From assembly GCA_963825135.1 (NCBI GenBank), contig CAWGRW010000009.1:2560001-2624000 (forward strand): a stretch of 64,000 nucleotides of DNA, written 5' to 3'. Below, one piece after another: positions 20,508 to 37,941 of this stretch. Made by a program: the position numbers and the translations under genes. Positions within the stretch are counted from its first letter, which is position 1, and every line of letters begins with the position of its first letter. The notes beneath the pieces are model-generated. The model was not told where the DNA came from. It ran no database searches and saw only the letters and a program-made list of their open reading frames with translations. Source of the stretch: an uncultured bacterium. Lineage in GTDB: Bacteria; Desulfobacterota_D; UBA1144; Nemesobacterales; UBA2774.

Positions 20508-20681
20508 ATGAATCTCCGTCGCGTTCCTTTCATAAAATAGGAACTCACGAAATTTTAACATATGACAATGTTCCGACGTTAACGGCTGAATAAAAAAAAG
20601 AAGGCCGTCGTCGCCTCCGGAAATAAAAAGTATTAAAAAAGTGAAATTAACATTTACAGAGTTTCGGAAAAAAACCGAAAT

Positions 20682-20721
20682 TGTCCGTTTTCAAACACAC
20701 CATACTGTCCGGAACGGAACA
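20682..20721. promoter_or_regulatory. Two tandem TGT-N10-ACA enhancer-like sites
   Basis: TGTCCGTTTTCAAACA (20682-20697) and TGTCCGGAACGGAACA (20706-20721), ~85-125 bp upstream of a sigma54 motif. Confidence 0.6.
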
Positions 20722-20806
20722 AATCGTCACTTTTTTCTTTTTAATACTCCAAACCGATATGAGAGTAACCGGCATTTCATTGGCGATATCGCGGATTCGT
20801 TATAGG

Positions 20807-20821
20807 TGGCACGGCGCTTGC
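20807..20821 (+). promoter_or_regulatory. Sigma54 (-24/-12) promoter
   Basis: TGGCACGGCGCTTGC fits TGGCACG-N4-TTGC, 42 bp before ATG 20864. Confidence 0.8.
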
Positions 20822-20863
20822 CAATCACAACCGCAAAATCCCCGGACAAAAGAGGCACTCAAA

Positions 20864-21973
20864 ATGAATCGAAGAACCATTGCTGGTTTTATATGCGTTC
20901 TGCTTACATCTCTGCTCGTTATTATTCCTCTTTCCACTGATGAAGCTCTATCTTATCATCGCTCAAATACACACAGGCCGCCAAGTAGTCCAACTCCCAC
21001 GCCGGTGCCGACGCCCGTACCGACCCCCAAGCCGACGCCCGTACCCACACCGGTACCGACGCCGGCTCCAAAGCCCGTTACGACGATTATAAAGGCCGGA
21101 GACAAGGTTGTGGAACGCGGTCAGTCCATACAATCGGCCATCGGCGCTGCGTCAAGCGGACAGACCGTGTGGGTTAAATCCGGCACCTGGACCCTTAACG
21201 CACAGCTTACGATGAAATACGGGGTAAGCGTTAAAGCCTATCCGGGAATGGAGGCATACGATTGGGATACCGACACCATTAATCCGTCCCACCCGTACAT
21301 CATTCCGGGCGCCTGTAATTCATGCGGCATAAGGTGGGGGAAAAATCAGGGAAATAATGAGTTCTCGGGGTTTGAAGTTGCCGGAGGGTACGGCGGTATA
21401 GATATCCATGCCAATAACGTGATCGTGAGCGACAACTGGATTCACGATACCGACTATACGAGTATATTCATAGCGAGCTCGAGTAATATTCTGATCGAGC
21501 ACAATAAGACTGAGCGTGACGGACAGTACTGCTACGGATGGACGAATCCAAATGACGGCACCCTGATAAGCCCGCGTCACTGCCATTCCGTTTACTTGAG
21601 CAACATCCCCGGTTACTGCGGCATGACGAATGTTACGGTCAGGGAAAATTACCTGTCGGATTCGGGGGGCAGCGCGGTGAATTTTAACGGCGATGACTGC
21701 GCCAAAGCCGGCGGTCAGCTCATATCGAATACCCTGATCGAGCTCAATAAGATAGTGGATGTGAATTTAGGGCCTTCTCTCTGGCACGGCACCACGGGGA
21801 CCGTAATAAGGGGTAATAAAATCACGATCCAGCACCCGTATACGCCGCCTGGTTCTATTAACGATATGTCCCTCGGCCTGAAATGCGGGATCGCCGCCTG
21901 GGATGAAACCCCGGCAATGTCGGGCAATACCTTTGACCTCAGGGCCGATTATAAACAGACCTGTCTGTATTAA
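20864..21973 (+). CDS. Secreted protein with Pro/Thr linker and right-handed parallel beta-helix (pectin-lyase-like) domain
   Basis: Signal peptide, PTPVPTP repeats, SIQSAI..A..G.TV.V.SGT, repeated N..I..N beta-helix rungs. Confidence 0.8.
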   Translation: MNRRTIAGFICVLLTSLLVIIPLSTDEALSYHRSNTHRPPSSPTPTPVPTPVPTPKPTPVPTPVPTPAPKPVTTIIKAGDKVVERGQSIQSAIGAASSGQTVWVKSGTWTLNAQLTMKYGVSVKAYPGMEAYDWDTDTINPSHPYIIPGACNSCGIRWGKNQGNNEFSGFEVAGGYGGIDIHANNVIVSDNWIHDTDYTSIFIASSSNILIEHNKTERDGQYCYGWTNPNDGTLISPRHCHSVYLSNIPGYCGMTNVTVRENYLSDSGGSAVNFNGDDCAKAGGQLISNTLIELNKIVDVNLGPSLWHGTTGTVIRGNKITIQHPYTPPGSINDMSLGLKCGIAAWDETPAMSGNTFDLRADYKQTCLY

Positions 21974-22295: not shown

Positions 22296-22403
22296 CCACT
22301 CCCGTTCGGGTCGTTATTGCCGCCGTCTTCCCGGGGCGGAGGCTGACCTCAAAATAACACTTAGGCATTGACATAAGTATTCGGCCATTGTATATTCAGG
22401 TAA

Positions 22404-22739
22404 ATGCCTAACAATCATGTGCAGCTCGATCGCGTTTTTTATGCCCTGTCGGACCCGACCCGTCGCGCCGTTTTGACACGGCTCAGCGACGGCCCCGCTC
22501 CCGTGAGCGAATTGGCGCGACCCTTCGACATGGCGCTGCCCTCATTCACCCAGCATTTGGGAGTTCTCGAGGAGTGCGGGCTGGTCCGCTCGCAAAAACG
22601 GGGACGGGTGCGTACCTATGTGTTGACGCCGGAACCGTTGAAAACAGCGGAACACTGGATCGAGAAGCGGCGCGTGCTTTGGGAGCTGCGCCTGGATCAA
22701 TTGGACAATTTCCTGATATCGTTAAAGGAGAAAAAGTGA
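22404..22739 (+). CDS. ArsR/SmtB family regulator
   Basis: [25 protein letters not shown]. Confidence 0.92.
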
Positions 22740-23239
22740 TGACTCATACAAAATTCAAACCCGATCCCGGGCTCGATCTCGTATTGGAGCGCATCGTCGA
22801 TGTGCCGAGAGAGCTCGTCTGGAAGGCGTGGACGACACCGGAATACCTGATGAAATGGTTCACGCCCGCACCCTGGATGACGGTCGAATGCGAGATCGAT
22901 CTCCGCCCCGGCGGGCTATTCCGCACGGTTATGCGTTCGCCGGAGGGGAAAGATCATCCGAATACCGGCTGTTACCTCGAAGTCGTCGAGAACGAGAAGC
23001 TCGTCTGGACCGATGCGCTCGAAGGCGGCTACAGGCCTTCCCAGAAGCCGAGCGACTGCCTCGCAGGATTCTTCTTTACCGCGAAAATCATTCTGGAGCC
23101 GCATAAAGACGGGACGAAATACACAGTTATTGCCCTTCACAGCAATGAAGAAGGGCGCAGAAAACACGAAGAGATGGGATTTCACGACGGATGGGGCACA
23201 GCCCTCGATCAGCTAGTTGCCTTTGTAAAAACACTGTAG
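22739..23239 (+). CDS. SRPBCC/AHSA1 family protein
   Basis: [32 protein letters not shown]; start overlaps the ArsR stop. Confidence 0.9.
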
Positions 23240-23370: not shown

Positions 23371-24939
23371 TTATAAATCATTTCCGGAATAAGACAAATT
23401 GAAACTTTTATTAATCAGGGGGAAATCGGGTACCACATTCCCCTTCCCCGCGTGACCCAATATGGTCCAGTTTATAAACGATGGGTCGCGCACGTCTACC
23501 CTGCTTATCTCACCGGCCGCATCCGTCGCTACAAAATAAACGATATCGCCCCGCCATCCTTCCGTCACTCCGACGCCGTAGCTGCTGCTCCTCAATACCA
23601 TTTTTTCGCCGGATTTTAGTTCGTTGTTCAAAGGAATGCTCCCGAGCGCCTGCTCTATAATATCCATGGAAGTATGCACTTCCTTGATACGCACGGACCA
23701 TCTGGCCCGCACATCCCCTTCTTCTTCCAGGACGATCTCAAATTTTAATTTGTCGTATGCCGCGTAGGGGTATTCAGCGCGCGCATCGTGCGCGATCCCG
23801 GTTGCCCTGGCGGCTACGCCGATAACACCGTGGTCGAGGGCTATCTGACGGTCGAGCTTGCCGGTGCCCGAAAGGCGGTTCAGGAGAGAGAAGCTGCTTT
23901 CGGCAATTTCAATCACTTCGTGAAAATCACGGTGTACTTTTTTTAGATCGCTTAATAGTCCACCGCTCATCTCGCTCGTGATATCCCGCGTCACCCCGCC
24001 GATCGTATTTATGCCCCGTAAGAAACGGTTTCCTGCAAGACGCTCACAGCATTGCATAATGATTTCGCGAAGACGCGCACCGTTACTGCCGCCGAAATTA
24101 TAGCCGGCGTCCAGCATAACGAGACCGATATCGCTCAAGTGGTTTGCCAGTCTCTCCAACTCGGAAAAAACAACTCTCAGATACTTTGCCCTTTCCGGAA
24201 TCTTAATGCCGGACAGGTTTTCCACGGCCTGACAAAATGCCAGCGAATGAGTGAACGAAGTGTCTCCCGAAACCCTCTCGGATAATCTGATCTTGTCTCC
24301 CATCGTTAAAACCTCGAAGAGTTTTTCGGCGCCTTTGTGTGTATATCCAAGCTTCGGCTCGAGCGACGCTATTTCCTCTCCGACGACGTTGAATCGGAAG
24401 TGCCCGGGTTCAATGATGCCGGCGTGCACGGGCCCTACGGGAATTTCATAAATTCCCATTCCTTCGACCTTGTGGAATTCATACGATGCGTGCGCCTGCG
24501 GCGGACGGTCCCGCCAGTTAAAATCTTTTCTCAGCGGGAAAACCGTATCAGGCCAATTTTCGTGAAGAATGATCGGCCGCGGATGGGGGTGCTTTGTCGG
24601 TTTTAAACCGAAAAAGGTCTCGATCTTCCTTTCGTAACCGGAAGCCTCGTGAATAGCTCTGGTGATTGAGGGAAAATTTCCATGGTCCGTGAGGGTTATG
24701 TAGGGGACGAGAAAAACATTCTCCTTCGGCACGCCAAACACATAATAGATCTTGAAACCTCCGTCTTCACTCCGTTCGTCCGCCGCGGTTATCGTTTTGA
24801 GCTGTAACGCGTGAGCGAAATAGAGCCGGTTGGCGATCTCCGGTATTTCATCAACAGGAACATTATAGGCAGCGACGTTGCCCTCTTTTCTCATCTCATA
24901 TTTAGCGGGAATATATTTTTCTATTATTTCTCGTTTCAT
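23371..24939 (-). CDS. Ehr large subunit (HyfG/HycE-like NuoC-D fusion) lacking NiFe-binding CxxC motifs
   Basis: VGPVHAGIIEPGHFRF, GYTHKG; L1 site reads ERVSGDTS and L2 site reads SFNLSYSGNDL. Confidence 0.9.
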   Translation of the reverse strand: MKREIIEKYIPAKYEMRKEGNVAAYNVPVDEIPEIANRLYFAHALQLKTITAADERSEDGGFKIYYVFGVPKENVFLVPYITLTDHGNFPSITRAIHEASGYERKIETFFGLKPTKHPHPRPIILHENWPDTVFPLRKDFNWRDRPPQAHASYEFHKVEGMGIYEIPVGPVHAGIIEPGHFRFNVVGEEIASLEPKLGYTHKGAEKLFEVLTMGDKIRLSERVSGDTSFTHSLAFCQAVENLSGIKIPERAKYLRVVFSELERLANHLSDIGLVMLDAGYNFGGSNGARLREIIMQCCERLAGNRFLRGINTIGGVTRDITSEMSGGLLSDLKKVHRDFHEVIEIAESSFSLLNRLSGTGKLDRQIALDHGVIGVAARATGIAHDARAEYPYAAYDKLKFEIVLEEEGDVRARWSVRIKEVHTSMDIIEQALGSIPLNNELKSGEKMVLRSSSYGVGVTEGWRGDIVYFVATDAAGEISRVDVRDPSFINWTILGHAGKGNVVPDFPLINKSFNLSYSGNDL

Positions 24940-24943
24940 GGTA

Positions 24944-26389
24944 TTAGTAATTTATTGTCGCTGAATGTAACAACGTCCGCATACCCTCCGGGATGAAAAT
25001 GCTGAAAATGATTAAAAGAGTGGCCAGAAGCATAATGGGGACGATTGTATCCAATCCGCTCTCGCCCTTTGCCATGGGTATGTCGCTGTTTCCAAACGTG
25101 ATCGAGACGACGTGCCGCAAAAAACCGACAAATACCAGGGCCAGCACCGATAAAGTAATGATCACGGTTGCCGGATGCGTATTAATGCCCGCCGACAATA
25201 TTGAAAATTCGGTTAAAAAAGTCCCGAACGGAGGAACGCCGGTGATCGCCAAAAATCCGATAAAAAACAGTATGCCGGTCACAGGCAGGACCGTAAGAAC
25301 GCCTTTCACATTTCTTATTTTTGTGGAACCGTATTTCACTAATATATTGCCCGCCGATAAGAATAGAACCGATTTTGTCAGCGCGTGGTAGATCATATGG
25401 AGCAGAGCCGCGAATGCCCCCGCGCCACCGAACCCGAACCCCAGGGCGACGATCCCCATGTGCTCAATGCTGGAATACGCCAGCAGCCGTTTATAGCTCT
25501 TTTGACTAAAGATGATAAAAGCCGCGACGGATATCGAGATGACGCCGAAAAATACGAGCAGCTCCCGGGAAAAATACGGGCCTATAGCTACATCGACAAC
25601 GGATTTGAACCGCAGAAGTGCGAGAAAAGCGACATTAAGCAATACGCCTGAAAGCAGGCTGCTGATCGGTGCCGGGGCTTTACTGTGGGCATCCGGCAGC
25701 CATGTATGCATGGGAACCAGACCGACTTTTGTGCCGTATCCGATTAAAATAAAAATGAATGCCATCTTGGCTATAAACGGATCAAGCGCTGAAGCATGGG
25801 ATAACATGTCGTGCCAACTGATCAATCCCGGAGAACCGGCATGTATGGACGGATAGAGGAAAAGGAAGGTGCCGAAAAATCCCAACAATAGTCCGACCGA
25901 ATTAATCATCAAATATTTCCAGGCTGCTTCAATCGCAGACGGCTTGTTGTAGAAGCTGATAAGGAACGCTGTGGAGAGCGTGGTCGCTTCAATCGCAATC
26001 CAGGTCAAAATGGGGCTCGTGGACATAACTGCAAAAAACATCGCCAGGAGGAATAAGTGCAACAGAATAAAATATTGCCGTACCCTGCTGAATCCTATGA
26101 TCCTTTTCGCCACCTCAAGTTTTAGATAGCCGGTCGAGTACCATGACGCCATGGCGCCTACGACTGCGACAAGCATGATTATGACCGCCCCCAGCGGGTC
26201 GACGAAGAAATAGCCGTTTAAGCGATATAAGCCGCTGCTCACGACCGAGGCGACCGTTACCAGCGTCGCCGCCAATTCCAGGAAAGAGGCGGAGACAGCG
26301 ATAAAGCTCAACACCCGCATATCTTTCTTCACAAAGAAAGATGCGACGGAGGCGATAATCGGTATGATGATAATTAAAAATAAGGCCAA
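24944..26389 (-). CDS. hyfF: HyfF-like proton-translocating antiporter-type subunit
   Basis: EATTL, EAAWKY, GTKVGLVPMHTWLPDAHS, KRLLAYSSIEH. Confidence 0.88.
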   Translation of the reverse strand: MALFLIIIIPIIASVASFFVKKDMRVLSFIAVSASFLELAATLVTVASVVSSGLYRLNGYFFVDPLGAVIIMLVAVVGAMASWYSTGYLKLEVAKRIIGFSRVRQYFILLHLFLLAMFFAVMSTSPILTWIAIEATTLSTAFLISFYNKPSAIEAAWKYLMINSVGLLLGFFGTFLFLYPSIHAGSPGLISWHDMLSHASALDPFIAKMAFIFILIGYGTKVGLVPMHTWLPDAHSKAPAPISSLLSGVLLNVAFLALLRFKSVVDVAIGPYFSRELLVFFGVISISVAAFIIFSQKSYKRLLAYSSIEHMGIVALGFGFGGAGAFAALLHMIYHALTKSVLFLSAGNILVKYGSTKIRNVKGVLTVLPVTGILFFIGFLAITGVPPFGTFLTEFSILSAGINTHPATVIITLSVLALVFVGFLRHVVSITFGNSDIPMAKGESGLDTIVPIMLLATLLIIFSIFIPEGMRTLLHSATINY

Positions 26390-26393
26390 CGAA

Positions 26394-27053
26394 TTATTCC
26401 TCTTTTAAATGTTTTAGCACACTCACATTAAGCGAGCCGAAGTGCCGGTATATCATTGACGCAAAAACGGTCGCGATAACGACCCAGATAAAAATATCGA
26501 ACAGAATGCCCACTTGCAGCCCGGCAGTCGTCTCAAGCCCGGCCACGTACGCGAATGAAACGATGGCATTTTCCAATGACAAAATACCGACCATCTGGGA
26601 CAGTGCCCCTTTGCGGTTAATAATTAAAAAAATTGATATGAGCACCATCGCTATGGCGAGAGATAAAGCGTTTTCCTTGCCCGGAGCGAGAATAGTCAAC
26701 GGACCGAAAAAGTGCGAGTAGGAAAGCGCGGTTAATAACGCCAGGGCGACCAGCGTCATAGGAGTGTTCAAATAAGTGCTGACGGAAAATTGCAGCCGGT
26801 GTTTTTTAATGAGCCCCGAAAAGAAATACGGGACGATTATCACTTTGACCAAAAAAGTCGCCGCAGCCGCTATCACAAGCAGAAGTGAGTACTCAGTGAG
26901 GGATGAATTGAACAAAACGATAGCAATGATCAATGACTGTGCCGCATAAAGAAGTATTACCCCCGAATTTTTCTTGGCGATGTGCATAAAAACGACCGAT
27001 ACAAACAGCATCGTCTCAAGAAAAAACAATATTTGCGGTGTAATAGAAATCAT
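26394..27053 (-). CDS. hyfE: HyfE-like membrane subunit
   Basis: Hydrophobic; KVIIVP, GILSLENAI, LFDIF; position in operon. Confidence 0.8.
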   Translation of the reverse strand: MISITPQILFFLETMLFVSVVFMHIAKKNSGVILLYAAQSLIIAIVLFNSSLTEYSLLLVIAAAATFLVKVIIVPYFFSGLIKKHRLQFSVSTYLNTPMTLVALALLTALSYSHFFGPLTILAPGKENALSLAIAMVLISIFLIINRKGALSQMVGILSLENAIVSFAYVAGLETTAGLQVGILFDIFIWVVIATVFASMIYRHFGSLNVSVLKHLKEE

Positions 27054-27057
27054 GGTT

Positions 27058-27984
27058 TTAGATAGTCAAACTCATAGCAATGATGCTTAAAATAAACGAT
27101 GTGAACAATAAATCCGGCAGTCTGAAAAACCTGAATTTGACGATAGTGGACTCCAGGACGGCAACGAATACGCTGAACGCAAGAATTTTTGCAAGAAACA
27201 AAATTAAGGCAAGCGGAACATCCCCGAGACGTCCCGATGACGACATCCCCCAGGGGAAGAATATATTTGCTCCCAATGCGAGGAAGATAAAAAACTTATT
27301 TGCCGCCGCCCATTCGATAAGCGCCAGTCTCTTTCCCGAATATTCCAGGACCATTGCTTCGTGGATCATGGTAAGCTCCAGGTGGGTAGCCGGATTATCG
27401 AAGGGGAAGCGCCCCGTTTCGGCAAGCATGGCGATTATAAACGCGGCGAGCGCGAGAGTTATCGGGGCAAAAGCGAAAAACGAAAACGAGGCGACAGCGC
27501 CGGAGATTGTAAAAAGATTCGTGGAATGAGCCGAGAACGCCGGGACGAGAATGGAGAACATCAAACCGCCCTCCGTTAAAGCGGCAACCGTCATTTCACG
27601 GCTTGATCCGAACCCCCCGAAAGCGCTTCCCACATCCATGCCGGCCAGGGCGAGAAAGAAAGTTCCAAGCGCAATCAGATATATTACGACCAGCAGGTCA
27701 CCGAGGACATTGATGGAAAAGATCGTGGTAAAGAGCGGAATGCTCGCTCCTATAATCACGGTGGTCGAAAAAATGAGATAGGGAGCGCATTTGAAAATCC
27801 AGGAAGCGTCCCCGCTTATCACCTCATCCTTATGGAGTAACTTCCACAAGTCCCTATACGGCTGAAATACGCTCGCGCCGACTCTGTTTTGGAATCTCGC
27901 TTTTATCTTTCTGACGACACCTATACACAGAGGCGACACGGCCGGCACGAGTGCTAATTGAATTGTCCAAATTATAATTGACAT
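27058..27984 (-). CDS. hyfC: HyfC/HycD (NuoH-like) membrane subunit
   Basis: QPYRDLWKL, FGGFGSSRE, ETGRFPFDNPATHLELTMIHEAMVLEYSG. Confidence 0.88.
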   Translation of the reverse strand: MSIIIWTIQLALVPAVSPLCIGVVRKIKARFQNRVGASVFQPYRDLWKLLHKDEVISGDASWIFKCAPYLIFSTTVIIGASIPLFTTIFSINVLGDLLVVIYLIALGTFFLALAGMDVGSAFGGFGSSREMTVAALTEGGLMFSILVPAFSAHSTNLFTISGAVASFSFFAFAPITLALAAFIIAMLAETGRFPFDNPATHLELTMIHEAMVLEYSGKRLALIEWAAANKFFIFLALGANIFFPWGMSSSGRLGDVPLALILFLAKILAFSVFVAVLESTIVKFRFFRLPDLLFTSFILSIIAMSLTI

Positions 27985-27991
27985 AGTATTT

Positions 27992-30037
27992 CTACATACC
28001 CGAAGCGAACAGCAGGGCAATGAGTATCGCCAATATGTACAGTACGTACATATTGATATTGCCGCTCTGGATTCTTTTCACGTACTCGGAAGCTTTGATG
28101 GTCAGCATATGCACCGGCTGATAAAAATACCTGTTGTAAATATCCTGAATCCCAAGTTCAATAGTGCTTGATTTTTGAAAATAACGCATATCCTCGTCCC
28201 GATACTCGATGCTCGTTTGTTTAGTCGGCTTGAGCGCCCCGCGGAAAATAGTAACGATAGAGTTGGAGAATCCCGTGGCTGTGATTTCCATTCTCGGGCT
28301 AAGAGTTGTTCCGCAATCCCATGTGCGGCCGATTTTCGTTTTTCTGTTGCGTGAGACGAGATACACGGCAAAAAACGTCAATGCCATGGTTACAATAAGA
28401 CTTGCCAGGATAAGCGGCATTGAAATTGAAGCGAAGCCGTTCCGCATTCCGGCCGTTTGGATGGTTGAAAAGAATGCCGGTTCGGAAGCATTAAAGGCGC
28501 TCAAATCGCTCACAACGCCTGATACTGCATTTGTGATACCGCCCGCCGTAAATCCTATGACCAGAGTAAGAGCCGCGAGAACGGCCATTCCGGCACGAAG
28601 CGCGAAACCCGACTCTCTTGCGCGCCGGACATTCTCACTCCTTGGTCTCGCCAGGAATGTAATTCCGAACGCTCTCACAAAACACATTGCCGCAAGCCCC
28701 CCCGTAAACGCAAGCGATCCCGCCGCCAGCACAAATACCCAGCGCACCGAGATATTCGATGCCATGATTCCGCTAAAAAGAGCCTGAAACGTCATCCATT
28801 CGCTGAAAAAACCGTTCATAGGAGGCAGCGCCGATATCGCCATCGAGCCGGCGAGAAAGAAAAGCGCAGTTTGCGGCATATATTTTATTAAGCCGCCGTA
28901 TTCTTCCATATTTCTGGTATGGGTTTGGGAAATAACGGAACCGGCGCCCAGGAATAATAATGCTTTGAATATCGCATGGTTGAGAGTATGAAAAAGCGCC
29001 GCTACCAGGCTAAGGACGGCCAGCGGCTTCATGTCCAGCGACCAAAACACAAGCGAGCTGCCGAGTCCCAGCAGAATGATCCCGATATTCTCGATGCTGC
29101 TGTAAGCCAGGAGTCTTTTGATATTGTATTCGGTGAGTGCATACAAAACCCCTAACAGCGATGATATAGCGCCCAGTATTAAAATAACGACTCCCCACCA
29201 GAGCGGCGCGTCCGGCAGCATGTCCATGAACATCCGGATAAACATATAGATGCCGGTCTTGATCATCACGCCCGACATCAGGGCGGAGACATGGGACGGG
29301 GCGGCGGGGTGAGCGTTAGGCAGCCAGATGTGAAAAGGGATTATGCCCGCTTTTGTTCCAAACCCTATAAGCGCAAGAATGAAAACCGTATCGGTTATGA
29401 GCGGCGGACTATTTCCGATAGTTTCTTTTATTACGCCAAAGTCCAAAGACCCGGTAGAACGGTACAGGAGTAAAAAAGCCAGCGTTATAAACGCCGTCCC
29501 GACGTGGGTCATAATGAAATAAAGCGATCCCGCTTGCACATTTTCTTTTTCCTTGTTTTCATAAATAACCAGGAAATACGACGCAAGTGACATTATTTCC
29601 CACACGATGAGAAAAAAAAGGGCATTGTGCGCGCTGACCACCATAACCATGCCGACCAGAAAAATATTATAAAAAAAGCCGAGCGCGCCGATGTTATACC
29701 TTTTGTAATAATGCTTTACATATCCCAATGCATAGATTGAAGCGAGTAAAGCGATGAGCGAAATAAGGAAGATGAAAAATGCGGATAATTTATCTACGCT
29801 GAAAGATAACGATAACAGAGGCAGCGTGGAGTCGATGTTAAAAGAAAATGTCGGCCCGACGATCAGCACCGACAGAGAGAACAATAATCCGACACAGGAT
29901 CCGAGAATCGCAAAAGAATTTCCCCACCAGTTTGCCAGGCGGTCATTTTTGCTCAAGGCCAAAGCCCCGACAGCCCCTGCTAACCATAATAGGAGTGACA
30001 GAAAGAATATATTCGATGAGATAAGCGTGTTAAACAT
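27992..30037 (-). CDS. hyfB: HyfB-like antiporter-type subunit
   Basis: WEIMSL, KAGIIPFHIWLPNAHPAAPSHVSALMSG, KRLLAYSSIEN, TWDCG. Confidence 0.9.
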   Translation of the reverse strand: MFNTLISSNIFFLSLLLWLAGAVGALALSKNDRLANWWGNSFAILGSCVGLLFSLSVLIVGPTFSFNIDSTLPLLSLSFSVDKLSAFFIFLISLIALLASIYALGYVKHYYKRYNIGALGFFYNIFLVGMVMVVSAHNALFFLIVWEIMSLASYFLVIYENKEKENVQAGSLYFIMTHVGTAFITLAFLLLYRSTGSLDFGVIKETIGNSPPLITDTVFILALIGFGTKAGIIPFHIWLPNAHPAAPSHVSALMSGVMIKTGIYMFIRMFMDMLPDAPLWWGVVILILGAISSLLGVLYALTEYNIKRLLAYSSIENIGIILLGLGSSLVFWSLDMKPLAVLSLVAALFHTLNHAIFKALLFLGAGSVISQTHTRNMEEYGGLIKYMPQTALFFLAGSMAISALPPMNGFFSEWMTFQALFSGIMASNISVRWVFVLAAGSLAFTGGLAAMCFVRAFGITFLARPRSENVRRARESGFALRAGMAVLAALTLVIGFTAGGITNAVSGVVSDLSAFNASEPAFFSTIQTAGMRNGFASISMPLILASLIVTMALTFFAVYLVSRNRKTKIGRTWDCGTTLSPRMEITATGFSNSIVTIFRGALKPTKQTSIEYRDEDMRYFQKSSTIELGIQDIYNRYFYQPVHMLTIKASEYVKRIQSGNINMYVLYILAILIALLFASGM

Positions 30038-30039
30038 AT

Positions 30040-30579
30040 TTATTGGGCGGCCTTGGCGCGGGAATCGAACATTTCAAGGATTTGCAGCAAGCTGCAAAGT
30101 ATTACTCTTGGAGACGGCGGGTCTCCGGGAATATTAAAATCTACAGGAATGACATTGTGCACTCCGTCCAAAACTCCGTAAGAACCTTTAAAAATGCCTC
30201 CGTCTATCGCGTCATCTCCGACTGCCACGACAATCTTCGGATCAGGAACGGCTTCGTATGTCCTTACCAGCGCTTCTTCCATGTTTCTGGTAACGGGGCC
30301 CGTAACCATCAGCATGTCCGCGTGCCTTGGCGAAGCTACAAAATGGATTCCGAATCTTTCAATGTCGTAATAAGCGTTGCCGAGCGCCGTAAGCTCCTGC
30401 TCGCATGCGTTGGTCGATCCGGCATCTACGGCCCGGATAGCGAGCGAGCCGTGAAATGACCGCCGTACTGCGGCTTCCAGCGTTTTCCCTATAATGTTAA
30501 TGTCCGCATCGCACCCGAGCGACCGAACGTCTATGACCGTCTTCGGTGTCGAAAAAATTTTGTAATAAAGTCTGAACAT
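30040..30579 (-). CDS. Ehr small subunit (HyfI/NuoB-like) with degenerate Fe-S ligands
   Basis: YDIERFGIHFVASPRHAD, VTGPVT; ligand motifs read GSTNACE, VGDDA, IPGDPP. Confidence 0.88.
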   Translation of the reverse strand: MFRLYYKIFSTPKTVIDVRSLGCDADINIIGKTLEAAVRRSFHGSLAIRAVDAGSTNACEQELTALGNAYYDIERFGIHFVASPRHADMLMVTGPVTRNMEEALVRTYEAVPDPKIVVAVGDDAIDGGIFKGSYGVLDGVHNVIPVDFNIPGDPPSPRVILCSLLQILEMFDSRAKAAQ

Positions 30580-30853
30580 TTTCTTACTTGATTAAATCAT
30601 CAGCGCCGACGTCAAAACGCTTTTGCGATTTGTGAAGGGTTTCAATAGTTGTATACGGCATAGTCTTCTGCAGGCTGTACCGTACTGGCGGATCAAATGC
30701 TTTCGTAAGAACGTTCATGGGTGTTAACGCGCGGTTTCCTGATGATTGTTCAGTAAATAAGGTAGTTGTCAAGAGAAACGAAGGAAAATTCACACCGGAA
30801 ACGGATATGCGCGCATGAAATAACCGTGAGCGAAACCGGCTCCCTGCTATTAC

Positions 30854-31681
30854 TCATACGGACGGAATTTGCGTCTGACGACGGAAGAGCCAGGCGGCTG
30901 TCGGCATAGCGGCGAGGGTTATTGCGACGCACCAGACGACCGAGAGCCATCCGGCGTTTCCTATAGGCGTCCCGACTAGCCAGGCGCGCATTGCCTGAAT
31001 CACTATGGTAAACGGCTGGTTCTCTGCGAAGACGCGTAGAGGGGCGGGCATGCCGTCCGTCGGGACGAAGGCGCTCGAAGCGAAGGTCAGGGGCATGATG
31101 ACGATGTAGCTCACCCACTGTGCCGCCTCAATGCTCTTCACGATAAGCCCGAGAATGGCGCAGAACCACGACATGGCGAACGTAAAGAGGAGCAGGAGAC
31201 CGAACACCGCGAGCCATTCGGCAGGCCCCGCCGTCGGACGGAAGCCGACCGCGAAGCCCGCTATGAGCATTATGAGACCCGAGATGGTGTTGCGGAAGAG
31301 GTCTGCGACAACATGACCCGTAAGGAGAGCGGAGCTGTTCATGGGGAGAGAGCGGAACCTGTCCACTATGCCGCGCTTGAGGTCGAGCACGATGTTGACC
31401 GTGGTGTTGCTCGAGCCGAACGCGAGGGTCTCGACGAGTATGCCTGCCAGAAGGAAATTGGGGTAAGAGGTGTCGCCCGTATCGATAGCGCCTCCGAAGA
31501 CGTAGCGGAACAGGATCAGAAACATGACGGGCATGAGGATGAGCGACAGCAGCTGGTCGAGGTTCCTGGTGATGTGCTTGATGCTGCGTTTGGTAAGCAC
31601 CCACGAATCGCTCAGAACCCAATAGATAGCCGGGCGGCGTTCGGGTTCTACCTTCGTAAGTATGGAGGAAATCCGGTCCAT
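30854..31681 (-). CDS. ABC-2 exporter permease (DrrB-like)
   Basis: LFRYVFGGAI, GIVDRFRSLP, FASSAFVP, NQPFT. Confidence 0.9.
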   Translation of the reverse strand: MDRISSILTKVEPERRPAIYWVLSDSWVLTKRSIKHITRNLDQLLSLILMPVMFLILFRYVFGGAIDTGDTSYPNFLLAGILVETLAFGSSNTTVNIVLDLKRGIVDRFRSLPMNSSALLTGHVVADLFRNTISGLIMLIAGFAVGFRPTAGPAEWLAVFGLLLLFTFAMSWFCAILGLIVKSIEAAQWVSYIVIMPLTFASSAFVPTDGMPAPLRVFAENQPFTIVIQAMRAWLVGTPIGNAGWLSVVWCVAITLAAMPTAAWLFRRQTQIPSV

Positions 31682-31685
31682 GGCT

Positions 31686-32657
31686 TCACCTTATCTCCTT
31701 TTCCGTATGACCCTGGTTGGTTTCCGTCGTTGCGGCGTGTCCGGTGAGGGCTAAAAAAACGTCGTCCAGCGTGGGGCGGTGAAGAGATACGCTCTCGACC
31801 TCGACCCCTGCATTCTCGAGACAGTCCAGGATTTCCCTGAGGTCCCGGACGCCGTTTTTGGTCGCGACGCTTATGCTCCGGCGCGGGAGGTCTATGTATA
31901 GCTCATCGGACGTGAAGACTTTCTTCGCGGCCTCGAAATCGCTTGTTCCCGCGATGACGAACTCCAGGTATTCGGACCCCACCCGCGCTTTCAGCTCCGA
32001 AGGCGTGCCCTGTGTTATAACCACCCCTTTGTCTATGACGACGATATCATCGGCGAGCCAGTCGGCCTCTTCCATGTACTGAGTGGTGAGGAGTATCGTG
32101 GTATCGCCCGCGGCGAGTTCCTTGATTATGTCCCACAGGATGAGACGGCTCCTGGGGTCGAGACCCGTTGTAGGCTCGTCGAGGAACAGGATCGAAGGAG
32201 AGGCTATGAGGCTCGCCGCGAGATCGAGCCTCCTCCGCATGCCGCCCGAATATGTCTTCAGCTGACGGGAAGACGCTTCCACGAGGTCGAACTGTTCGAG
32301 CAGGTCTCTCGCTCGGCGTTTGGTATCCGCGTCGCTCAGGCGGTAGAGACGCCCCATCATTTCGAGGTTTTCGAGCCCGGTCAGATATTCGTCCACGGCC
32401 GCGTACTGTCCGGTGAGGCCGATGCTGCTCCGCACCTTGTCGGGCTCGCGGACGACGTCGTAGCCGTTTACGAGCACCCTGCCGCCGTCGGGCTTGAGCA
32501 GTGTGCTGAGGATTCTGACCGTGGTGGTCTTCCCCGCGCCGTTTGGGCCGAGTATTCCCAGGACAGAGCCGCGGCGGACGGCGAAATTAAGGCCCTTCAA
32601 AACCTTTATCGCCCCGTAAGACTTCTTGAGGCCCTCGACTATGATTGAGTTATCCAT
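31686..32657 (-). CDS. ABC exporter ATP-binding subunit (DrrA-like)
   Basis: GPNGAGKTT, YSGGMRRRL, LFLDEPTTGLDP, PTLDDVFL. Confidence 0.93.
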   Translation of the reverse strand: MDNSIIVEGLKKSYGAIKVLKGLNFAVRRGSVLGILGPNGAGKTTTVRILSTLLKPDGGRVLVNGYDVVREPDKVRSSIGLTGQYAAVDEYLTGLENLEMMGRLYRLSDADTKRRARDLLEQFDLVEASSRQLKTYSGGMRRRLDLAASLIASPSILFLDEPTTGLDPRSRLILWDIIKELAAGDTTILLTTQYMEEADWLADDIVVIDKGVVITQGTPSELKARVGSEYLEFVIAGTSDFEAAKKVFTSDELYIDLPRRSISVATKNGVRDLREILDCLENAGVEVESVSLHRPTLDDVFLALTGHAATTETNQGHTEKEIR

Positions 32658-35034: not shown

Positions 35035-36227
35035 ATCAGGTCTCTTAAATATTCCCCGACGTCGGAGGTCGATATCTTCTCAAGGGCGGATTTTTCTATC
35101 TGCCTTATCCTCTCGCGCGTAACCCCGAATATATCCCCGATCTCGTTTAACGTGTAGGTGGTGTCTATGCCTATGCCGAAGCGCATCCTGATTATCTCCT
35201 GCTCCTTCGGCGTGAGGAGCGATAGTATGTCCTCTATCCTGTTCTGGACCGTTCTTTTGAGTATCGCGGAATCGGGCGGGGGTATCTTCTCGTCCTCGAC
35301 GAATTCGATGTGTGTCCTCTGGTCTTCGTTCGAGACCGGGGTGTCGAGGGACTGCACGTTGTTCATAACGTCTGACGCGGTCTGTATAATCCTTTTCACT
35401 ACGGAGGGCGAAATCCCCAGCTCCTTCGCTATCTCCTCGCACGTGGGCTCCCTGTCGAGCTCCTTCGACAGCATCGTGGTGACCGCCCTCACTTTTCCGG
35501 CCCATTCGTAGAGATATACCGGAATCCTGATGGTCTTGGTCTTCTCGAACGGCGCCCTGAATACTGCCTGCTGAATCCACCAGGTCGCGTAGGTGGAGAA
35601 CTTGTATCCGAGCGTGTAATCGAATTTCTCGACGGCCCTCATGAGGCCGAGGTTTCCTTCCTGAATGAGGTCGGCCAGAGGCAGGCCCCTTCCCATGTAG
35701 TTCTTCGCGATGCTAATTACCAGCTTGAGGTTCGACTTGATGAACCTGTTCTTGAGCTCGGAGGACCTCTTCACGTAGGCGTTCGAGAGGGTGTTCATCC
35801 TCTCAATGTAGCCGATCATGTCCTTTCCGGTGTAAACGGGGTACTTTTTAAAGAGGCTCTTGTTCTTGTTCGCGTCCCGTGAAATCTCGTTGAGTACCGC
35901 CCTTATGGCCTCGGCCTTGTTCTCGCACTTTTTAATATTGGCCGCTATCCTGAGCTCTTCTTTGGGCGAAAGGAGGGACGTCTCGTGCTCGAGGTCCTTG
36001 AAATATACGTGGAGGAGCCTCAAGTGCTCCTCGAGCTTCGATTTCCGGTGCTTCTTCCGGCCGGAGCCCGTCTCAAGGGAAGTGAAATCAGAATCGGATT
36101 CTGCGTCATCGGGGGCGAAACCATCGACCTCGACGTATGGAAATAATTCGTAATCTTTTTCGGAAGAGCCTGATTCTATTAAAGCGAGCCTCGGAGTCAA
36201 CTTTTCAAGGTCTTTATGTTTTTTCAT
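35031..36227 (-). CDS. Sigma-70 family RNA polymerase sigma factor (RpoD-like, no obvious region 1.1)
   Basis: [49 protein letters not shown]. Confidence 0.93.
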
Positions 36228-36448
36228 AACACCCTTTATCCCTGTTATGCATGGGATTCCCCTATTGAGTCAAAACTATGCGCTCCTTCAATACCCGTAA
36301 TGGTATGAGGGTACCCGGAATTACCGGGAATTATTCGATCTAATCGGCTGAAATCGAATATACAAGAAAATCGGTTGATTTTGGTTAATTCGGGAAGGCC
36401 GGGATAATTGGCCCTCCCGTTTAATTTTTCAAAATTATCAACGCACGA

Positions 36449-36868
36449 TTATATCTTGAAGGATTCAAGCGCTTCGTCGAACATCGTAAAAGCCTTGATC
36501 ACATTCTTCTTCGCGATGTCGTGGCTCTCCGCGGCGACGTTGCCCGAAATTCCCTTGAACGAATCCGTCAGGTTCTTCTGAAACTCGAAAACCTTGGCCA
36601 GTCCGTCGTCGAAAGCCCCTGTATCGACCTTGGCGAACGGGTAATTCTGCTTCGGAAGCGATCCGTAAAACTCCTTAACGGAATTGAAGTAATCCTTTTC
36701 CGCATCGATAACGTAGTCGAGCTGCTTGTTCAGCACCTTCTTGTTTTCCTCGGCCACTGATAAAGAGAAATCGAGCGTATTGAGATACGTCTCTTTTACG
36801 AGCTTCGATAATTCCTTTACCGGCTCGGTGAAACCTTTTGCATCAAAAGCTTGTTTGCTTGTTGCCAT
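36449..36868 (-). CDS. Hypothetical amphipathic-helix protein, phasin-like
   Basis: GGAGG RBS, 139 aa, apparently all-helical amphipathic pattern. Confidence 0.6.
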   Translation of the reverse strand: MATSKQAFDAKGFTEPVKELSKLVKETYLNTLDFSLSVAEENKKVLNKQLDYVIDAEKDYFNSVKEFYGSLPKQNYPFAKVDTGAFDDGLAKVFEFQKNLTDSFKGISGNVAAESHDIAKKNVIKAFTMFDEALESFKI

Positions 36869-37193
36869 GATTATGACCTCCTTTTTTGGTCTAGGATTAA
36901 TATAATAGTCCCGGAAACGGTTGTCAAGAGGAAATGTACGCAAATGCGAAGATTTATATATTCATAACAGCCTGCCATTACAGCATATATAAATTCACCA
37001 TGAAAATATTATAATGCGTGTGCTTATAAATTGAGGTATCCGGATCCGTGGACGGCGGGGTTCTTAAAAGGGATGTACAGGCGGGAATAGAATGGAGAAT
37101 AGCATAAAGGATATAATTATCTATTATCCTCTCGGGTGTAAAAATACTTTAAGAACGCCTTCTAACAACCTAATATGACTTGCTAAATAATAT

Positions 37194-37601: not shown

Positions 37602-37941
37602 TTCAGGCTCCTTAATACTTGATAATGACTATTATAAATCCTGTGGGGGAATGTCAAGCGGCGCGACCGGGCGTCAGCGTAATAAGGCATAACCTATTTG
37701 TTTTTGAATGAAATAAAACTATAGGGGTAAAACTGTAATGACTGTTAAGGAAACCGAATCGTAAGGAGTATGAATGTGAAACCTTCCATTACTTCAATGC
37801 AGGGAGCGGTCGGAAAGTTCTTCATCGGCGGAAGGACGATACATCCGCCTTATCAATTCCAAACACCCATACCGGTCAAGCCGTGATGCGCTTTAGAACC
37901 GCTCCCCATCGATCCATACCGTCAAATTCAAACCGGGCTGA

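What the first reader, a model, noticed from the sequence alone, without database searches (positions are those of the whole stretch)
23371..30579. Apparently cofactor-free complex-I/hydrogenase-like membrane machine
Seen: an intact, tightly packed, AT-richer six-gene operon (small subunit, hyfB, C, E, F, large subunit). The large subunit has no CxxC at either Ni site, which is the known Ehr condition. The small subunit has also lost 3 of 4 [4Fe-4S] cysteines: CxxC reads TNAC, GxC reads GDD, PGCPP reads PGDPP. No NuoI/HyfH ferredoxin subunit is present. The antiporter Glu/Lys motifs are retained and no frame is broken, suggesting selection. Inference: the complex cannot do canonical electron transfer. 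The Cys/Asp/Asp set may bind a different metal, so it may be a redox-independent ion pump/antiporter or couple the ion gradient to other chemistry (e.g. CO2 hydration or anion detoxification).
Basis: partly seen in the sequence, partly recalled or inferred. Interest (0 to 1): 0.82.

Follow-up and report, generated by a model that had tools for sequence, protein, structure and literature searches.

The report
Cofactor-free complex-I-like (Ehr) membrane module
This bacterium picked up, probably from ultra-small "CPR" bacteria, a well-kept six-gene relative of respiratory complex I and membrane hydrogenases that has no recognisable site left for any electron-carrying metal centre, so it most likely moves protons or other ions without redox chemistry.

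Summary
Window 23371-30579 (minus strand) carries six tightly packed genes: small subunit, HyfB-, HyfC-, HyfE-, HyfF-like, large subunit. The large subunit has S/T/S/G at the four Ni-Fe cysteine positions. The small subunit has T56/C59/D123/D153 at the four [4Fe-4S] positions. No ferredoxin-type subunit is present.

The substitutions are not private. They recur in 103-118 of the 120 closest homologues. All six genes have dN/dS of 0.07-0.18.

It belongs to the known Ehr (energy-converting-hydrogenase-related) kind, in a Cys-depleted class. That class had gene order S-B-C-E-F-L in all 22 loci where order could be read. The 26 readable Cys-intact Ehr loci had B-C-E-F-L-S.

The class lies near F1Fo ATP synthase genes in 12 of 49 loci, against 0 of 37 Cys-intact loci. 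Carbonic-anhydrase-like genes are adjacent in 6 of 49. Neither neighbour occurs in this window.

Here the module is a ~7.9-kb insertion found in 4 of 10 genomes of one genus and in 0 of 110 other genomes of the phylum. An empty site exists in a sister genome. Its nearest named relatives are CPR bacteria.

Best reading (0.55): a redox-independent ion-translocating machine. This scan has found the same class repeatedly in CPR genomes. The new points here are the non-CPR host and the module's autonomy. Function remains untested.

The parts
30040..30579 (-). Small subunit (NuoB/HycG-like, 179 aa). The [4Fe-4S] ligand positions read T56, C59, D123, D153.
   Evidence: Pfam PF01058, E 6.8e-26. Residue-by-residue alignment to HycG and MbhJ. 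AlphaFold2 model with a 94-sequence alignment has mean pLDDT 93.9. Best fold matches are NuoB/PSST, HycG and MbhJ; for MbhJ, TM 0.87 normalised by target length.
27992..30037 (-). HyfB/HycC-like antiporter-type subunit (681 aa)
   Evidence: PF00361 and PF00662. HycC 7z0s_C E 4.8e-82 and MbhH E 4.9e-68, with the Glu/Lys/His motifs kept.
27058..28020 (-). HyfC/HycD/NuoH-like subunit (320 aa as listed; likely start at M13 = 27984)
   Evidence: PF00146. HycD 7z0s_D E 9.8e-46. The alignment begins at M13, and the Glu-rich loop with its PFD motif is kept.
26394..27053 (-). HyfE-like membrane subunit (219 aa)
   Evidence: No Pfam hit. NCBIfam NF008556 'hydrogenase 4 membrane subunit', E 3.1e-18, below its cut-off.
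24944..26389 (-). HyfF-like antiporter-type subunit (481 aa)
   Evidence: PF00361. Alignments to NdhF, an MBS subunit and NuoL show the charged motifs kept, with a Glu at the TM12 position.
23371..24939 (-). Large subunit (NuoC-NuoD/HycE-like, 522 aa). The Ni-Fe ligand positions read S224, T227, S516, G519.
   Evidence: PF00329 and PF00346. HycE 7z0s_E E 1e-79, with alignment. S224, G225, D226, S516, Y517, G519, D521, H172, E177 and H180 are at least 90% conserved in both Ehr classes.
30584..30793 (-). Decayed remnant of an XRE-type HTH regulator gene directly upstream of S. It is probably part of the transferred block.
   Evidence: It aligns with intact 69-aa HTH_3 proteins upstream of S in L022 and L030. 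The window copy lacks the central ~46 residues.
30745..30772 (-). Promoter-like site TTGACA-16-AACAAT about 165 nt upstream of S (candidate only)
   Evidence: Consensus scan. 7 sites were found in the region against 10.2 expected, so this is not above chance.

Best explanation
The six genes encode an Ehr-type complex, a relative of group-4 membrane hydrogenases and complex I. It belongs to a distinct, conserved class that has lost the Ni-Fe site, the proximal [4Fe-4S] cluster and the ferredoxin-like subunit or domain.

Shown:
- The anatomy of the operon.
- The loss of the canonical ligands.
- Conservation of that loss across a large clade.
- Purifying selection on every subunit.
- Retention of the charged residues of the ion-translocating membrane subunits.
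- Acquisition as a discrete insertion in one genus of a non-CPR phylum, from a clade whose named members are CPR bacteria.

Inferred:
- With no electron path, the complex works without redox chemistry as a proton or cation translocating device.
- The peripheral arm (S+L) serves as a non-redox, acid-base or cation-binding head. This head would comprise a conserved polar pocket at the former Ni-Fe site and an acidic patch (D122, D153, plus E59 or D123) where the cluster used to be.
- The device is linked to the membrane ion gradient, as its frequent placement directly behind the ATP synthase operon in relatives suggests.
- Because it was transferred and kept on its own here, the six-gene module is probably functionally self-sufficient.
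For: Ligand loss: alignments to HycG, MbhJ and HycE.

No ferredoxin-type partner: none of the 13 ORFs scanned in and around the operon has a Fer4 domain. No ORF with CxxCxxCxxxCP occurs in any of the 49 Cys-depleted loci. A relaxed motif finds only two unrelated distant ORFs.

Conservation: among the 120 closest small-subunit clusters (69-100% identity), TNAC occurs in 103, GDD in 116 and PGDPP in 118.

Classes: small subunits were classified in 88 of 91 fetched loci. 49 lack 3-4 Cys, 37 have all four, and 2 are NuoB of complex I.

Gene order: all 22 Cys-depleted loci holding both S and L are S-B-C-E-F-L. All 26 such Cys-intact loci are B-C-E-F-L-S.

Cysteine content: 5 of 49 Cys-depleted small subunits have no Cys.

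Selection: dN/dS against three ~90%-identical operons is 0.071-0.180 for all genes.

Membrane motifs are kept.

Fold: the S fold is predicted with confidence (pLDDT 93.9) and matches NuoB, HycG and MbhJ.

ATP synthase: genes lie within the fetched flanks of 12 of 49 Cys-depleted loci and 0 of 37 Cys-intact loci. They are directly upstream on the same strand in 8 of the 19 Cys-depleted loci with at least 4 kb upstream.

Horizontal transfer:
- 4 of 120 genomes of the phylum hold it, all in one genus (4 of 10).
- In sister genome G072 the two flanking blocks lie ~157 bp apart, against ~7.9 kb in G076/L003.
- GC is 0.487 against 0.532.
- The window's L nests inside the clade containing L018. The ATP synthase beta subunit of L018 is 81-88% identical to proteins whose taxon-bearing source names are all CPR: Patescibacteria, Moranbacteria, Parcubacteria, Pacebacteria. 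One further name reads only 'bacterium'.
Against: No experiment exists for any Ehr complex. The papers I could read call the function unknown (passages in PMC10284858, PMC10432482 and bioRxiv 10.1101/765248).

Absence of canonical ligands does not prove absence of a cofactor. This window's S keeps C59 plus three oxygen ligands.

The large subunit is about equally conserved in the Cys-intact class, with no class-specific invariant residue. The two classes may therefore share one chemistry, and in the Cys-intact class that chemistry could still be redox.

The ATP synthase link is absent in 37 of 49 Cys-depleted loci (many have short flanks) and absent in this genome. Here the ATP synthase genes lie about 2 Mb away on the same contig.

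Related loci are not independent samples.

Why a mere ion carrier would keep a strongly conserved peripheral arm is unexplained.
Confidence: 0.55

Rival explanations
1. The complex is a proton-coupled CO2/bicarbonate machine. The membrane arm removes or delivers the proton of CO2 hydration or dehydration, which is carried out by a carbonic anhydrase partner or at the polar pocket of the large subunit. From recall, this resembles cyanobacterial NDH-1 with CupA and the DabAB system.
For: Carbonic-anhydrase-like genes of three unrelated kinds lie directly beside the operon in 6 of 49 Cys-depleted loci.
- Pro_CA_2: L041 (E 3.5e-33), L049 (E 4.8e-26), L062 (E 2.9e-9).
- Gamma-CA-like: L051. Best NCBIfam hits are the CcmM gamma-CA domain (E 1.7e-49) and 'carbonic anhydrase' (E 8.6e-39), both below the curated cut-offs.
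- CsoSCA-like, weak: L026 and L070.

A phmmer search with these five proteins over all fetched loci found no homologue in the 37 Cys-intact loci.

Earlier notes of this scan report the same pairing in CPR genomes. These are leads, not independent evidence.
Against: There is no CA-like gene next to the operon in this window or in the three ~90%-identical operons L003-L005. No Pro_CA_2 match exists in the own genome, which is 94% complete. The two beta-CA genes lie about 1 Mb away. 43 of 49 loci show no CA neighbour. Two of the six hits are far below the family cut-offs. The control in Cys-intact loci only looked for homologues of five proteins.
Confidence: 0.2
2. It is still a redox enzyme. Either a non-canonical metal centre sits at the C59/D122/D123/D153 site or at the Ser/Asp pocket of the large subunit, or an external redox partner encoded elsewhere docks and delivers electrons. 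Such a partner was proposed for FDH-Ehr in Margulisbacteria.
For: C59, D123 and D153 are conserved in the window's subclade: C59 and D123 in 29 of 29 xCDx loci, D153 in 26 (N in 3). Positions 59 and 123 covary: C+D 29, E+G 14, other 6 of 49. This suggests a selected site rather than drift. An FDH-Ehr idea is in print for Cys-intact Ehr (PMC6349859, passages and Supplementary Note 4). Ehr subunits of Geobacter rise in abundance on formate (PMC7894505, passages).
Against: One Cys plus carboxylates is not a known ligand set for a stable [4Fe-4S] cluster (established knowledge, recalled). 5 of 49 small subunits have no Cys. Position 59 is E, A or V in 20 of 49. The other Cys of the window protein (C23, C162) are not conserved. 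The NuoI-like domain that feeds electrons in Cys-intact Ehr is missing. No redox-partner gene recurs in the neighbourhoods. From recall of CPR biology, many carriers lack respiratory chains.
Confidence: 0.12
3. It is a decaying, non-functional remnant of a hydrogenase operon, or a sequencing or assembly artefact.
For: All catalytic ligands are lost. The upstream HTH gene is decayed. One relative (L005) has its B gene split into three ORFs.
Against: All six frames are intact. dN/dS is 0.07-0.18. The same substitutions occur in more than 100 clusters and 49 loci from many samples. The small subunit is 69-81% identical between this genome and CPR-type relatives.
Confidence: 0.03

Closest known systems
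Ehr (energy-converting / Ech-hydrogenase-related) complexes. Examples: Geobacter sulfurreducens GSU0739-45 (EhrA-D, L, S) and the Margulisbacteria and Nitrospira complexes.
   Same: The subunit set is homologous (HyfB/C/E/F-like, large and small subunit). The large subunit lacks the Ni-Fe cysteines. Function is unknown. The residues around the former Ni-Fe site (S224, G225, D226, S516, Y517, G519, D521) are shared. The definition comes from passages in PMC6349859, PMC10284858, PMC3569383 and PMC7894505.
   Different: In my sample the classical form keeps all four small-subunit Cys. Its gene order is B-C-E-F-L-S in 26 of 26 readable loci. Its small subunit is often ~270-295 aa with an N-terminal NuoI-like part (PMC6349859 Supplementary Note 4). 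The window's form has a 179-aa small subunit with 1 of 4 Cys, no NuoI part, and the small-subunit gene first.
CPR-specific Ehr clade (Jaffe et al. 2020, PMC7304191)
   Same: This is probably the same clade. Close small-subunit homologues carry CPR names from their sources: Magasanikbacteria, Uhrbacteria, Parcubacteria, Paceibacterota. The paper reports a monophyletic CPR group of Ehr large subunits without metal-binding Cys and with a patchy, transfer-like distribution (passages).
   Different: The passages I read describe only the large subunit. A search of the main text for 'ATP synthase', 'ATPase' and 'antiporter' found none. Its Additional file 2 was not seen. The host here is not a CPR bacterium. 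It has a 3.1-Mb genome with its own complex I and ATP synthase.
E. coli formate hydrogenlyase / hydrogenase-4 (Hyc/Hyf; PDB 7z0s)
   Same: These are the best sequence matches among solved structures for S (HycG, 5.5e-29), L (HycE, 1e-79), B (HycC, 4.8e-82) and C (HycD, 9.8e-46). L is a NuoC-NuoD fusion like HycE.
   Different: There is no Ni-Fe site, no proximal cluster, no HycF/HyfH, no HycB/HyfA and no formate dehydrogenase gene in the operon.
Respiratory complex I and membrane-bound hydrogenase MBH (PDB 6cfw)
   Same: It has the same modular build: a NuoH-like subunit, antiporter-like subunits and a NuoB/NuoD-like head. The S model superposes on NuoB/PSST and MbhJ.
   Different: Cluster N2 is missing. 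The residues aligned to the quinone-binding His38 and Tyr87 of T. thermophilus Nqo4 are Ile176 and Gly225. The alignment is; the role of those two residues is recalled. There are no NuoI or NuoE-G equivalents.
Mrp-type multisubunit cation/proton antiporters
   Same: B and F match MrpA/MrpD chains in the solved-structure searches (7qru_A/D, 6z16_A/D). Mrp is the known redox-free member of this superfamily, so it is the closest model for how the complex may work.
   Different: No MrpB/C/E/F/G homologues were seen among the six genes. Mrp has no NuoB/NuoD/NuoH-like head (recalled).

Membership tests
Ehr (energy-converting hydrogenase-related) complex | Subunits homologous to group-4 [NiFe]-hydrogenase / complex I, encoded together: large, small, NuoH-like and antiporter-like | tested here: met
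   Pfam, NCBIfam and solved-structure matches for all six genes
Ehr (energy-converting hydrogenase-related) complex | Large subunit lacks the CxxC motifs that bind Ni-Fe | tested here: met
   S224/T227 and S516/G519 align to the four Cys of HycE. The same pattern (S-x-S-G) occurs in 45 of 45 Ehr large subunits of both classes in my sample.
Group-4 [NiFe]-hydrogenase (Hyf/Hyc/Ech/Mbh) | Four Cys ligands of the Ni-Fe centre in the large subunit | tested here: not met
Group-4 [NiFe]-hydrogenase (Hyf/Hyc/Ech/Mbh) | Proximal [4Fe-4S] cluster with four Cys in the small subunit | tested here: not met
   T56, C59, D123, D153
Group-4 [NiFe]-hydrogenase (Hyf/Hyc/Ech/Mbh) | 2x[4Fe-4S] ferredoxin-like subunit (HycF/HyfH/NuoI-like) | tested here: not met
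   No Fer4 domain in the operon or adjacent ORFs. No CxxCxxCxxxCP ORF in 49 loci of the class.
Respiratory complex I (NDH-1) | Cluster N2 in NuoB, and quinone-binding His/Tyr in NuoD | tested here: not met
   N2 ligands lost. Ile176 and Gly225 align to Nqo4 His38 and Tyr87 (residue roles recalled). The genome has a separate nuo locus at C9:847-854 kb.
Mrp cation/proton antiporter | MrpA/D-like subunits together with the small MrpB, C, E, F, G subunits, and no peripheral arm | tested here: not met
   Only the antiporter-like part is shared. A NuoB/NuoCD/NuoH-like head is present.
CO2-hydrating complex-I-like systems (NDH-1 with CupA; DabAB) | A carbonic-anhydrase-type subunit encoded with the antiporter-like subunit | tested here: not met
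   None in the window or in L003-L005. Present beside 6 of 49 related loci. The definitions of these systems are recalled.
Cys-depleted Ehr class (as delimited here) | Small subunit of ~180 aa lacking at least 3 of 4 cluster Cys, small-subunit gene first, D/N at positions 122 and 153 | tested here: met
   The window groups with this class in the L tree. One origin of the class is not rejected (AU p = 0.337).

The most novel reading that the evidence does not exclude
A complex-I-type energy converter that runs with no redox chemistry at all. The cubane-binding pocket of the NuoB-like subunit has been rebuilt as a carboxylate patch, and the Ni-Fe pocket as a Ser/Asp pocket. Together they would form a protonation- or cation-driven switch that gates the antiporter-like membrane arm. 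The six-gene unit is a self-sufficient, mobile module that works both in ATP-synthase-dependent CPR fermenters and, after transfer, in a respiring bacterium. If true, it would separate the coupling mechanism of the complex I superfamily from electron transfer.
Probability: 0.3. Interest if true: 0.8.

Novelty: new variant of a known kind. Interest (0 to 1): 0.6.

Why it matters
How complex I and its hydrogenase relatives turn chemistry at the NuoB/NuoD interface into ion movement is a long-standing question. A natural, conserved version with the whole coupling apparatus but no recognisable redox centre would be a minimal system for studying that coupling.

It would also give a testable function to the Ehr family, which every paper I could read calls unexplained.

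This window adds a practical point. The module occurs in a bacterium with a normal-sized genome, as a clean seven-to-eight-kb insertion without ATP synthase or carbonic anhydrase neighbours. The six genes alone are therefore a reasonable unit to express and assay.

The papers found by searches mention neither the small-subunit cluster loss, nor the gene-order split, nor the ATP synthase linkage. Marreiros et al. 2013 and Coppi 2005, which define the family, were not readable. The point may be made there.

Tried and rejected
- First AlphaFold2 run of S with 62 close homologues gave a useless model (mean pLDDT 44.5). A 94-sequence, more diverse alignment gave pLDDT 93.9. No coordinates are returned, so the geometry of the T/C/D/D site could not be measured.
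- read the ligand columns one residue off. It was corrected.
- Expression: no RNA holder listed. No reads were laid.
- Names for the nearest unnamed homologues: the listing of cluster members returned no organism names.
- Search for a seventh conserved subunit or unknown partner among unannotated neighbours: the clusters found were antisense ORFs inside operon genes. The remaining small proteins had no Pfam match even at E up to 1.
- Alternative Cys ligands (C23, C162) are not conserved.
- Na+ coupling of the neighbouring ATP synthases: the 8 c subunits read '...FAEAxAIY/LL...', without the Gln/Glu-Ser-Thr signature that I recall for Na+-binding c rings. This is a recalled rule and only weak evidence for H+ coupling.
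- Promoter and terminator scan: nothing above chance.
- 'Perfect' link between gene order and Cys loss is rejected as stated. Two Cys-intact loci (L086, L073) also begin with the small-subunit gene. With L085 they form a separate clade in the poorly resolved S tree.
- A strict rule 'always a carboxylate at position 59 or 123' holds in 49 of 49 loci. It fails in a few of the 150 distant cluster representatives: DADAD, TCDGN, DCTAA.
- Marreiros 2013 is not held.

Full report
**1. What is there**

Window 23371-30579 holds six ORFs on the minus strand with 2-4 nt spacers or short overlaps.
- S, 179 aa, 30040-30579.
- B, 681 aa, 27992-30037.
- C, 320 aa as listed, 27058-28020. The alignment to HycD starts at M13, so the true start is probably 27984.
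- E, 219 aa, 26394-27053.
- F, 481 aa, 24944-26389.
- L, 522 aa, 23371-24939.

Family assignments:
- S is NuoB/HycG-like (PF01058).
- B and F are antiporter-like (PF00361).
- C is NuoH/HycD-like (PF00146).
- L is a NuoC-NuoD fusion like HycE (PF00329 + PF00346).
- E matches only the NCBIfam model for the hydrogenase-4 membrane subunit HyfE, E 3.1e-18, below its cut-off.

No ferredoxin-type domain is present in the operon or in the seven neighbouring ORFs scanned.

**2. The ligand positions**

Against solved HycG and MbhJ, the four Cys that hold the proximal [4Fe-4S] cluster align to T56, C59, D123 and D153. Against HycE, the four Ni-Fe Cys align to S224, T227, S516 and G519.

The positions that align to His38 and Tyr87 of Thermus Nqo4 are Ile176 and Gly225. 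I recall those two residues as the quinone ligands. L keeps the hydrogenase-like 'GPVHAGIIEPGHF' stretch.

The membrane subunits keep the charged residues typical of the family:
- The TM5 Glu, the TM7 Lys in the '...GTKxGxxPxHxWLPxAH...' motif, the His/Lys pair of TM10-11 and a TM12 Glu in both B and F.
- The Glu-rich loop with PFD in C.

With a diverse 94-sequence alignment, AlphaFold2 folds S with mean pLDDT 93.9. The model matches NuoB/PSST, HycG and MbhJ chains; for MbhJ, TM 0.87 normalised by target length, rmsd 3.4 Å. AlphaFold ignores cofactors, so this only shows that the sequence fits the fold.

In 'GDD' only D123 replaces a Cys. The AT-richness is modest: GC 0.487 against 0.532 for the genome, and 6.2% of 3030 equal-sized genome windows are as low.

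**3. Not private, and under selection**

The 120 best small-subunit clusters in the 5.8-billion-protein collection are 69-100% identical to S. They read TNAC in 103, GDD in 116 and PGDPP in 118. Only the best 120 of 8000 scored candidates were listed.

Among the 150 best cluster representatives at 50% identity, most have all four Cys. About two dozen lack three or four, with many different replacements such as SEDGD, NEDGD, DADAD and DVDES.

Against three operons of ~90% protein identity (L003, L004, L005), dN/dS by NG86 is 0.071-0.180 for every gene compared (17 gene pairs). The B gene of L005 was left out because it is split into three ORFs.

**4. Two classes of Ehr**

I fetched 11 loci from species-representative genomes and 80 from metagenomes. 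The 80 were the best of 595 confirmed relatives, so the sample is biased towards relatives of S.

A small-subunit ORF could be classified in 88 of the 91 loci. 49 lack 3-4 of the Cys, 37 have all four, and 2 are NuoB of ordinary complex I. L006, L046 and L093 had no usable S ORF.

Every large subunit in both classes lacks the Ni-Fe Cys (pattern S-x-S-G). Both classes are therefore Ehr in the published sense.

Where both S and L are on the contig:
- All 22 Cys-depleted loci have the order S-B-C-E-F-L.
- All 26 Cys-intact loci have B-C-E-F-L-S.

Two further Cys-intact loci, on short contigs, begin with S (L086, L073). The link between order and Cys loss is therefore strong but not absolute.

Cys-intact small subunits are often 266-295 aa with an N-terminal Cys-rich part. 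This fits the NuoB-NuoI fusion described for Margulisbacteria Ehr (PMC6349859, Supplementary Note 4, passage seen). Cys-depleted ones are mostly ~170-190 aa (range 154-244), carry 0-4 Cys in total, and 5 of 49 have none.

No ORF with a CxxCxxCxxxCP motif occurs in any Cys-depleted locus.

**5. Phylogeny**

In a maximum-likelihood tree of 47 large subunits (quick search, LG+G4, NuoD outgroup), the Cys-depleted class falls into two well-supported clades of 6 and 17. These sit in an unresolved three-way fork with a four-member Cys-intact clade. Holding the class together costs 4.3 log-likelihood units (AU p = 0.337). One origin is therefore not rejected, and also not shown.

The window's L sits in a starred clade with L003-L005, inside a starred 7-row clade with L016, L018 and L023. 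The S tree (141 columns) is poorly resolved and adds little.

**6. The former cluster pocket**

Across the 49 Cys-depleted loci:
- Position 122 is D in 46 and N in 3.
- Position 153 is D in 44 and N in 5.
- Positions 59 and 123 covary: C+D in 29, E+G in 14, other combinations in 6.
- Every one of the 49 has a carboxylate at position 59 or 123.
- Position 56 is T, D, S or N.

In the more distant representatives the rule has exceptions: DADAD, TCDGN, DCTAA.

C23 and C162 of the window protein are not conserved.

Between the classes the only class-specific invariant positions of S are D153/C, A58/G and L63/I. L has none.

In both classes L keeps, at 90% or more, H172, E177, H180, S224, G225, D226, S516, Y517, G519 and D521. 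S is also the subunit best conserved between the classes: 48-66% identity to the window protein, against 23-48% for the other five.

This shared, conserved polar pocket argues that the head of the complex still does something. It also argues that whatever it does may be common to all Ehr.

**7. Gene neighbourhood in relatives**

An unsupervised clustering of neighbouring ORFs brought out a full F1Fo ATP synthase operon. Pfam confirmed it: AtpI-like, a, c, b, delta, alpha, gamma, beta, epsilon.

- ATP synthase genes lie within the fetched flanks of 12 of 49 Cys-depleted loci and of 0 of 37 Cys-intact loci.
- Among the 19 Cys-depleted loci with at least 4 kb upstream of S, 8 have the operon directly upstream on the same strand.
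- In L040, L051 and L062 the gap between atpC and S is only 78-132 nt.
- The 12 loci span the TCDD, DCDD, DADD, SEDD, TEGD and NEGD variants.
- Twelve Cys-intact loci with at least 4 kb on one side show none.

Related loci are not independent, so I give no test.

After I had found this, the scan's earlier notes showed the same class and the same ATP synthase linkage reported many times in CPR genomes. They also gave a further lead: carbonic anhydrase neighbours.

Testing that lead on my loci gave carbonic-anhydrase-like genes directly beside the operon in 6 of 49.
- Three Pro_CA_2: L041, L049, L062.
- One gamma-CA-like: L051. Its best NCBIfam hits are the CcmM gamma-CA domain and 'carbonic anhydrase', both below their cut-offs.
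- Two weak CsoSCA-like: L026, L070.

phmmer with these five proteins found no homologue in the Cys-intact loci. That is a narrow control.

**8. This genome**

The window lies on a 2.8-Mb contig of a 3.13-Mb assembly that is 94% complete. The genome has its own nuo locus (C9:847-854 kb). Its ATP synthase is split between ~515-519 kb and ~756 kb. Its two beta-CA genes lie at 1.44 and 1.60 Mb. All are 1-2 Mb from the operon at 2.58-2.59 Mb. It has no Pro_CA_2 match.

The closest named genome record is a Candidatus Dadabacteria MAG. Its L is 89% identical to the window's (L004), and its flanks are 81-92% identical in DNA to the window's flanks.

In the phylum as held (120 genomes), S is found at E ≤ 1e-30 in 4, all within one genus (4 of 10 including this genome). 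It is found in 0 of the other 110. Several of those genomes are incomplete.

In sister genome G072 (98% complete, no match), the arsR/AHSA1 block and the rph block lie ~157 bp apart. In G076 (= L003) they are ~7.9 kb apart, and the operon and the small upstream ORF fill that gap. This is an empty-site/filled-site pair.

In the window itself the surroundings were further rearranged. The arsR/AHSA1 pair lies downstream of L, and an ABC-2 exporter pair (30854-32657) lies upstream.

Source-given names of small-subunit homologues at 72-77% identity are Magasanikbacteria, Uhrbacteria, Patescibacteria, Parcubacteria, Paceibacterota and one Lentisphaeria MAG. L018 lies next to the window's clade in the L tree. 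Its ATP synthase beta subunit is 81-88% identical to proteins whose taxon-bearing source names are all CPR; one further name reads only 'bacterium'. In CPR-type loci the operon's GC equals that of its flanks: L018 0.440 against 0.435, L023 0.474 against 0.477.

The simplest reading is transfer from a CPR-type donor into this genus. The direction is inferred from nesting and composition. It was not tested with a rooted reconciliation.

**9. How it most likely works**

Shown: there is no canonical site for any of the family's electron carriers, the ion-translocating membrane part looks intact, the head is conserved, and selection acts on all subunits.

Inferred: the complex translocates protons or other cations without electron transfer. 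The head acts as a non-redox acid-base or cation-binding switch.

The ATP synthase linkage in relatives ties it to the membrane ion gradient. In organisms that I recall as lacking respiratory chains, that gradient would be made by ATP hydrolysis. The carbonic anhydrase neighbours in a minority of relatives suggest that in some lineages the proton handled is that of CO2/bicarbonate interconversion.

Here neither neighbour is present. The module has been kept for long enough to accumulate dS ≈ 0.2-0.5 within the genus. This suggests that it works on its own.

I put 0.55 on the redox-free ion-device reading, 0.2 on the CO2/bicarbonate version, 0.12 on a hidden redox function and 0.03 on decay.

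**10. Known or new**

Ehr complexes are a known kind. A CPR-specific Ehr clade lacking the Ni-Fe Cys is in print (PMC7304191, passages).

The papers found by searches treat only the large subunit and call the function unknown. I read passages of these:
- PMC6349859, plus one supplementary note.
- PMC7304191.
- PMC7894505.
- PMC10284858.
- PMC4758237.
- PMC3569383.
- PMC10432482.
- bioRxiv 10.1101/765248.

None of these passages mentions loss of the small-subunit cluster, the gene-order split or ATP synthase linkage.

Limits of this check:
- Marreiros et al. 2013 and Coppi 2005, the defining papers, could not be read. What I say of them is from citations.
- Jaffe's Additional file 2 was not seen.
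- bioRxiv supplements are closed.

This scan has already reported the Cys-depleted class many times on other DNA.

What this window adds:
- A non-CPR, respiring host.
- A demonstrated insertion site.
- Detachment from ATP synthase and CA genes.
- The covariation at positions 59 and 123.
- The finding that L does not differ between the classes.

I file it as a new variant of a known kind.

Noticed in passing
window 30584-30793 (-): The 69-aa ORF just upstream of S is a decayed XRE-type HTH gene. Intact 69-aa HTH_3 homologues sit in the same place in L022 and L030. The window copy lacks the central ~46 residues, and the L003/L004 copies are diverged.
   Followed up: partly
window 30854-32657 (-): An ABC-2 type exporter pair (permease and ATPase) lies between the operon and the next syntenic block. 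It is absent from that position in L003-L005. There, the arsR/AHSA1 pair that lies downstream of L in the window (22351-23238) sits upstream of the operon instead.
   Followed up: partly
window 36000-38500: A second low-GC stretch (GC 0.447-0.454 in 1-kb windows, against 0.53 for the genome) holds only short ORFs. It may be another acquired segment.
   Followed up: no
window 20681-21973 (+): A 430-aa right-handed beta-helix protein (PF13229) lies in a stretch of GC ~0.48, near the operon. No counterpart was aligned in L003-L005 at this place.
   Followed up: no
L051:12739-14337 and L062:12436-14034: In two TEGD/NEGD-type loci, the HyfC-like and HyfE-like genes appear fused into one 532-aa ORF.
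   Followed up: no
L073:3016-3579, L086:186-746, L085: A small clade of short (186-213 aa) small subunits has all four Cys intact. In the two loci where order can be read (L073, L086), the gene comes first in its operon. It may be a third Ehr or hydrogenase arrangement. Their large subunits are not on the contigs.
   Followed up: partly
L048:17707-20526: A second HyfB-like and HyfC-like gene pair follows directly after a complete Cys-depleted Ehr operon.
   Followed up: no
L005:4898-6968: The B gene of this ~90%-identical operon is split into three ORFs. This is either frameshifts or assembly error in that MAG.
   Followed up: no
G077 (contigs C17, C21, C22): One same-genus genome shows three copies of S at 91-92% identity. 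Its contamination estimate is 7%, so mixed strains are as likely as true multiple copies.
   Followed up: no
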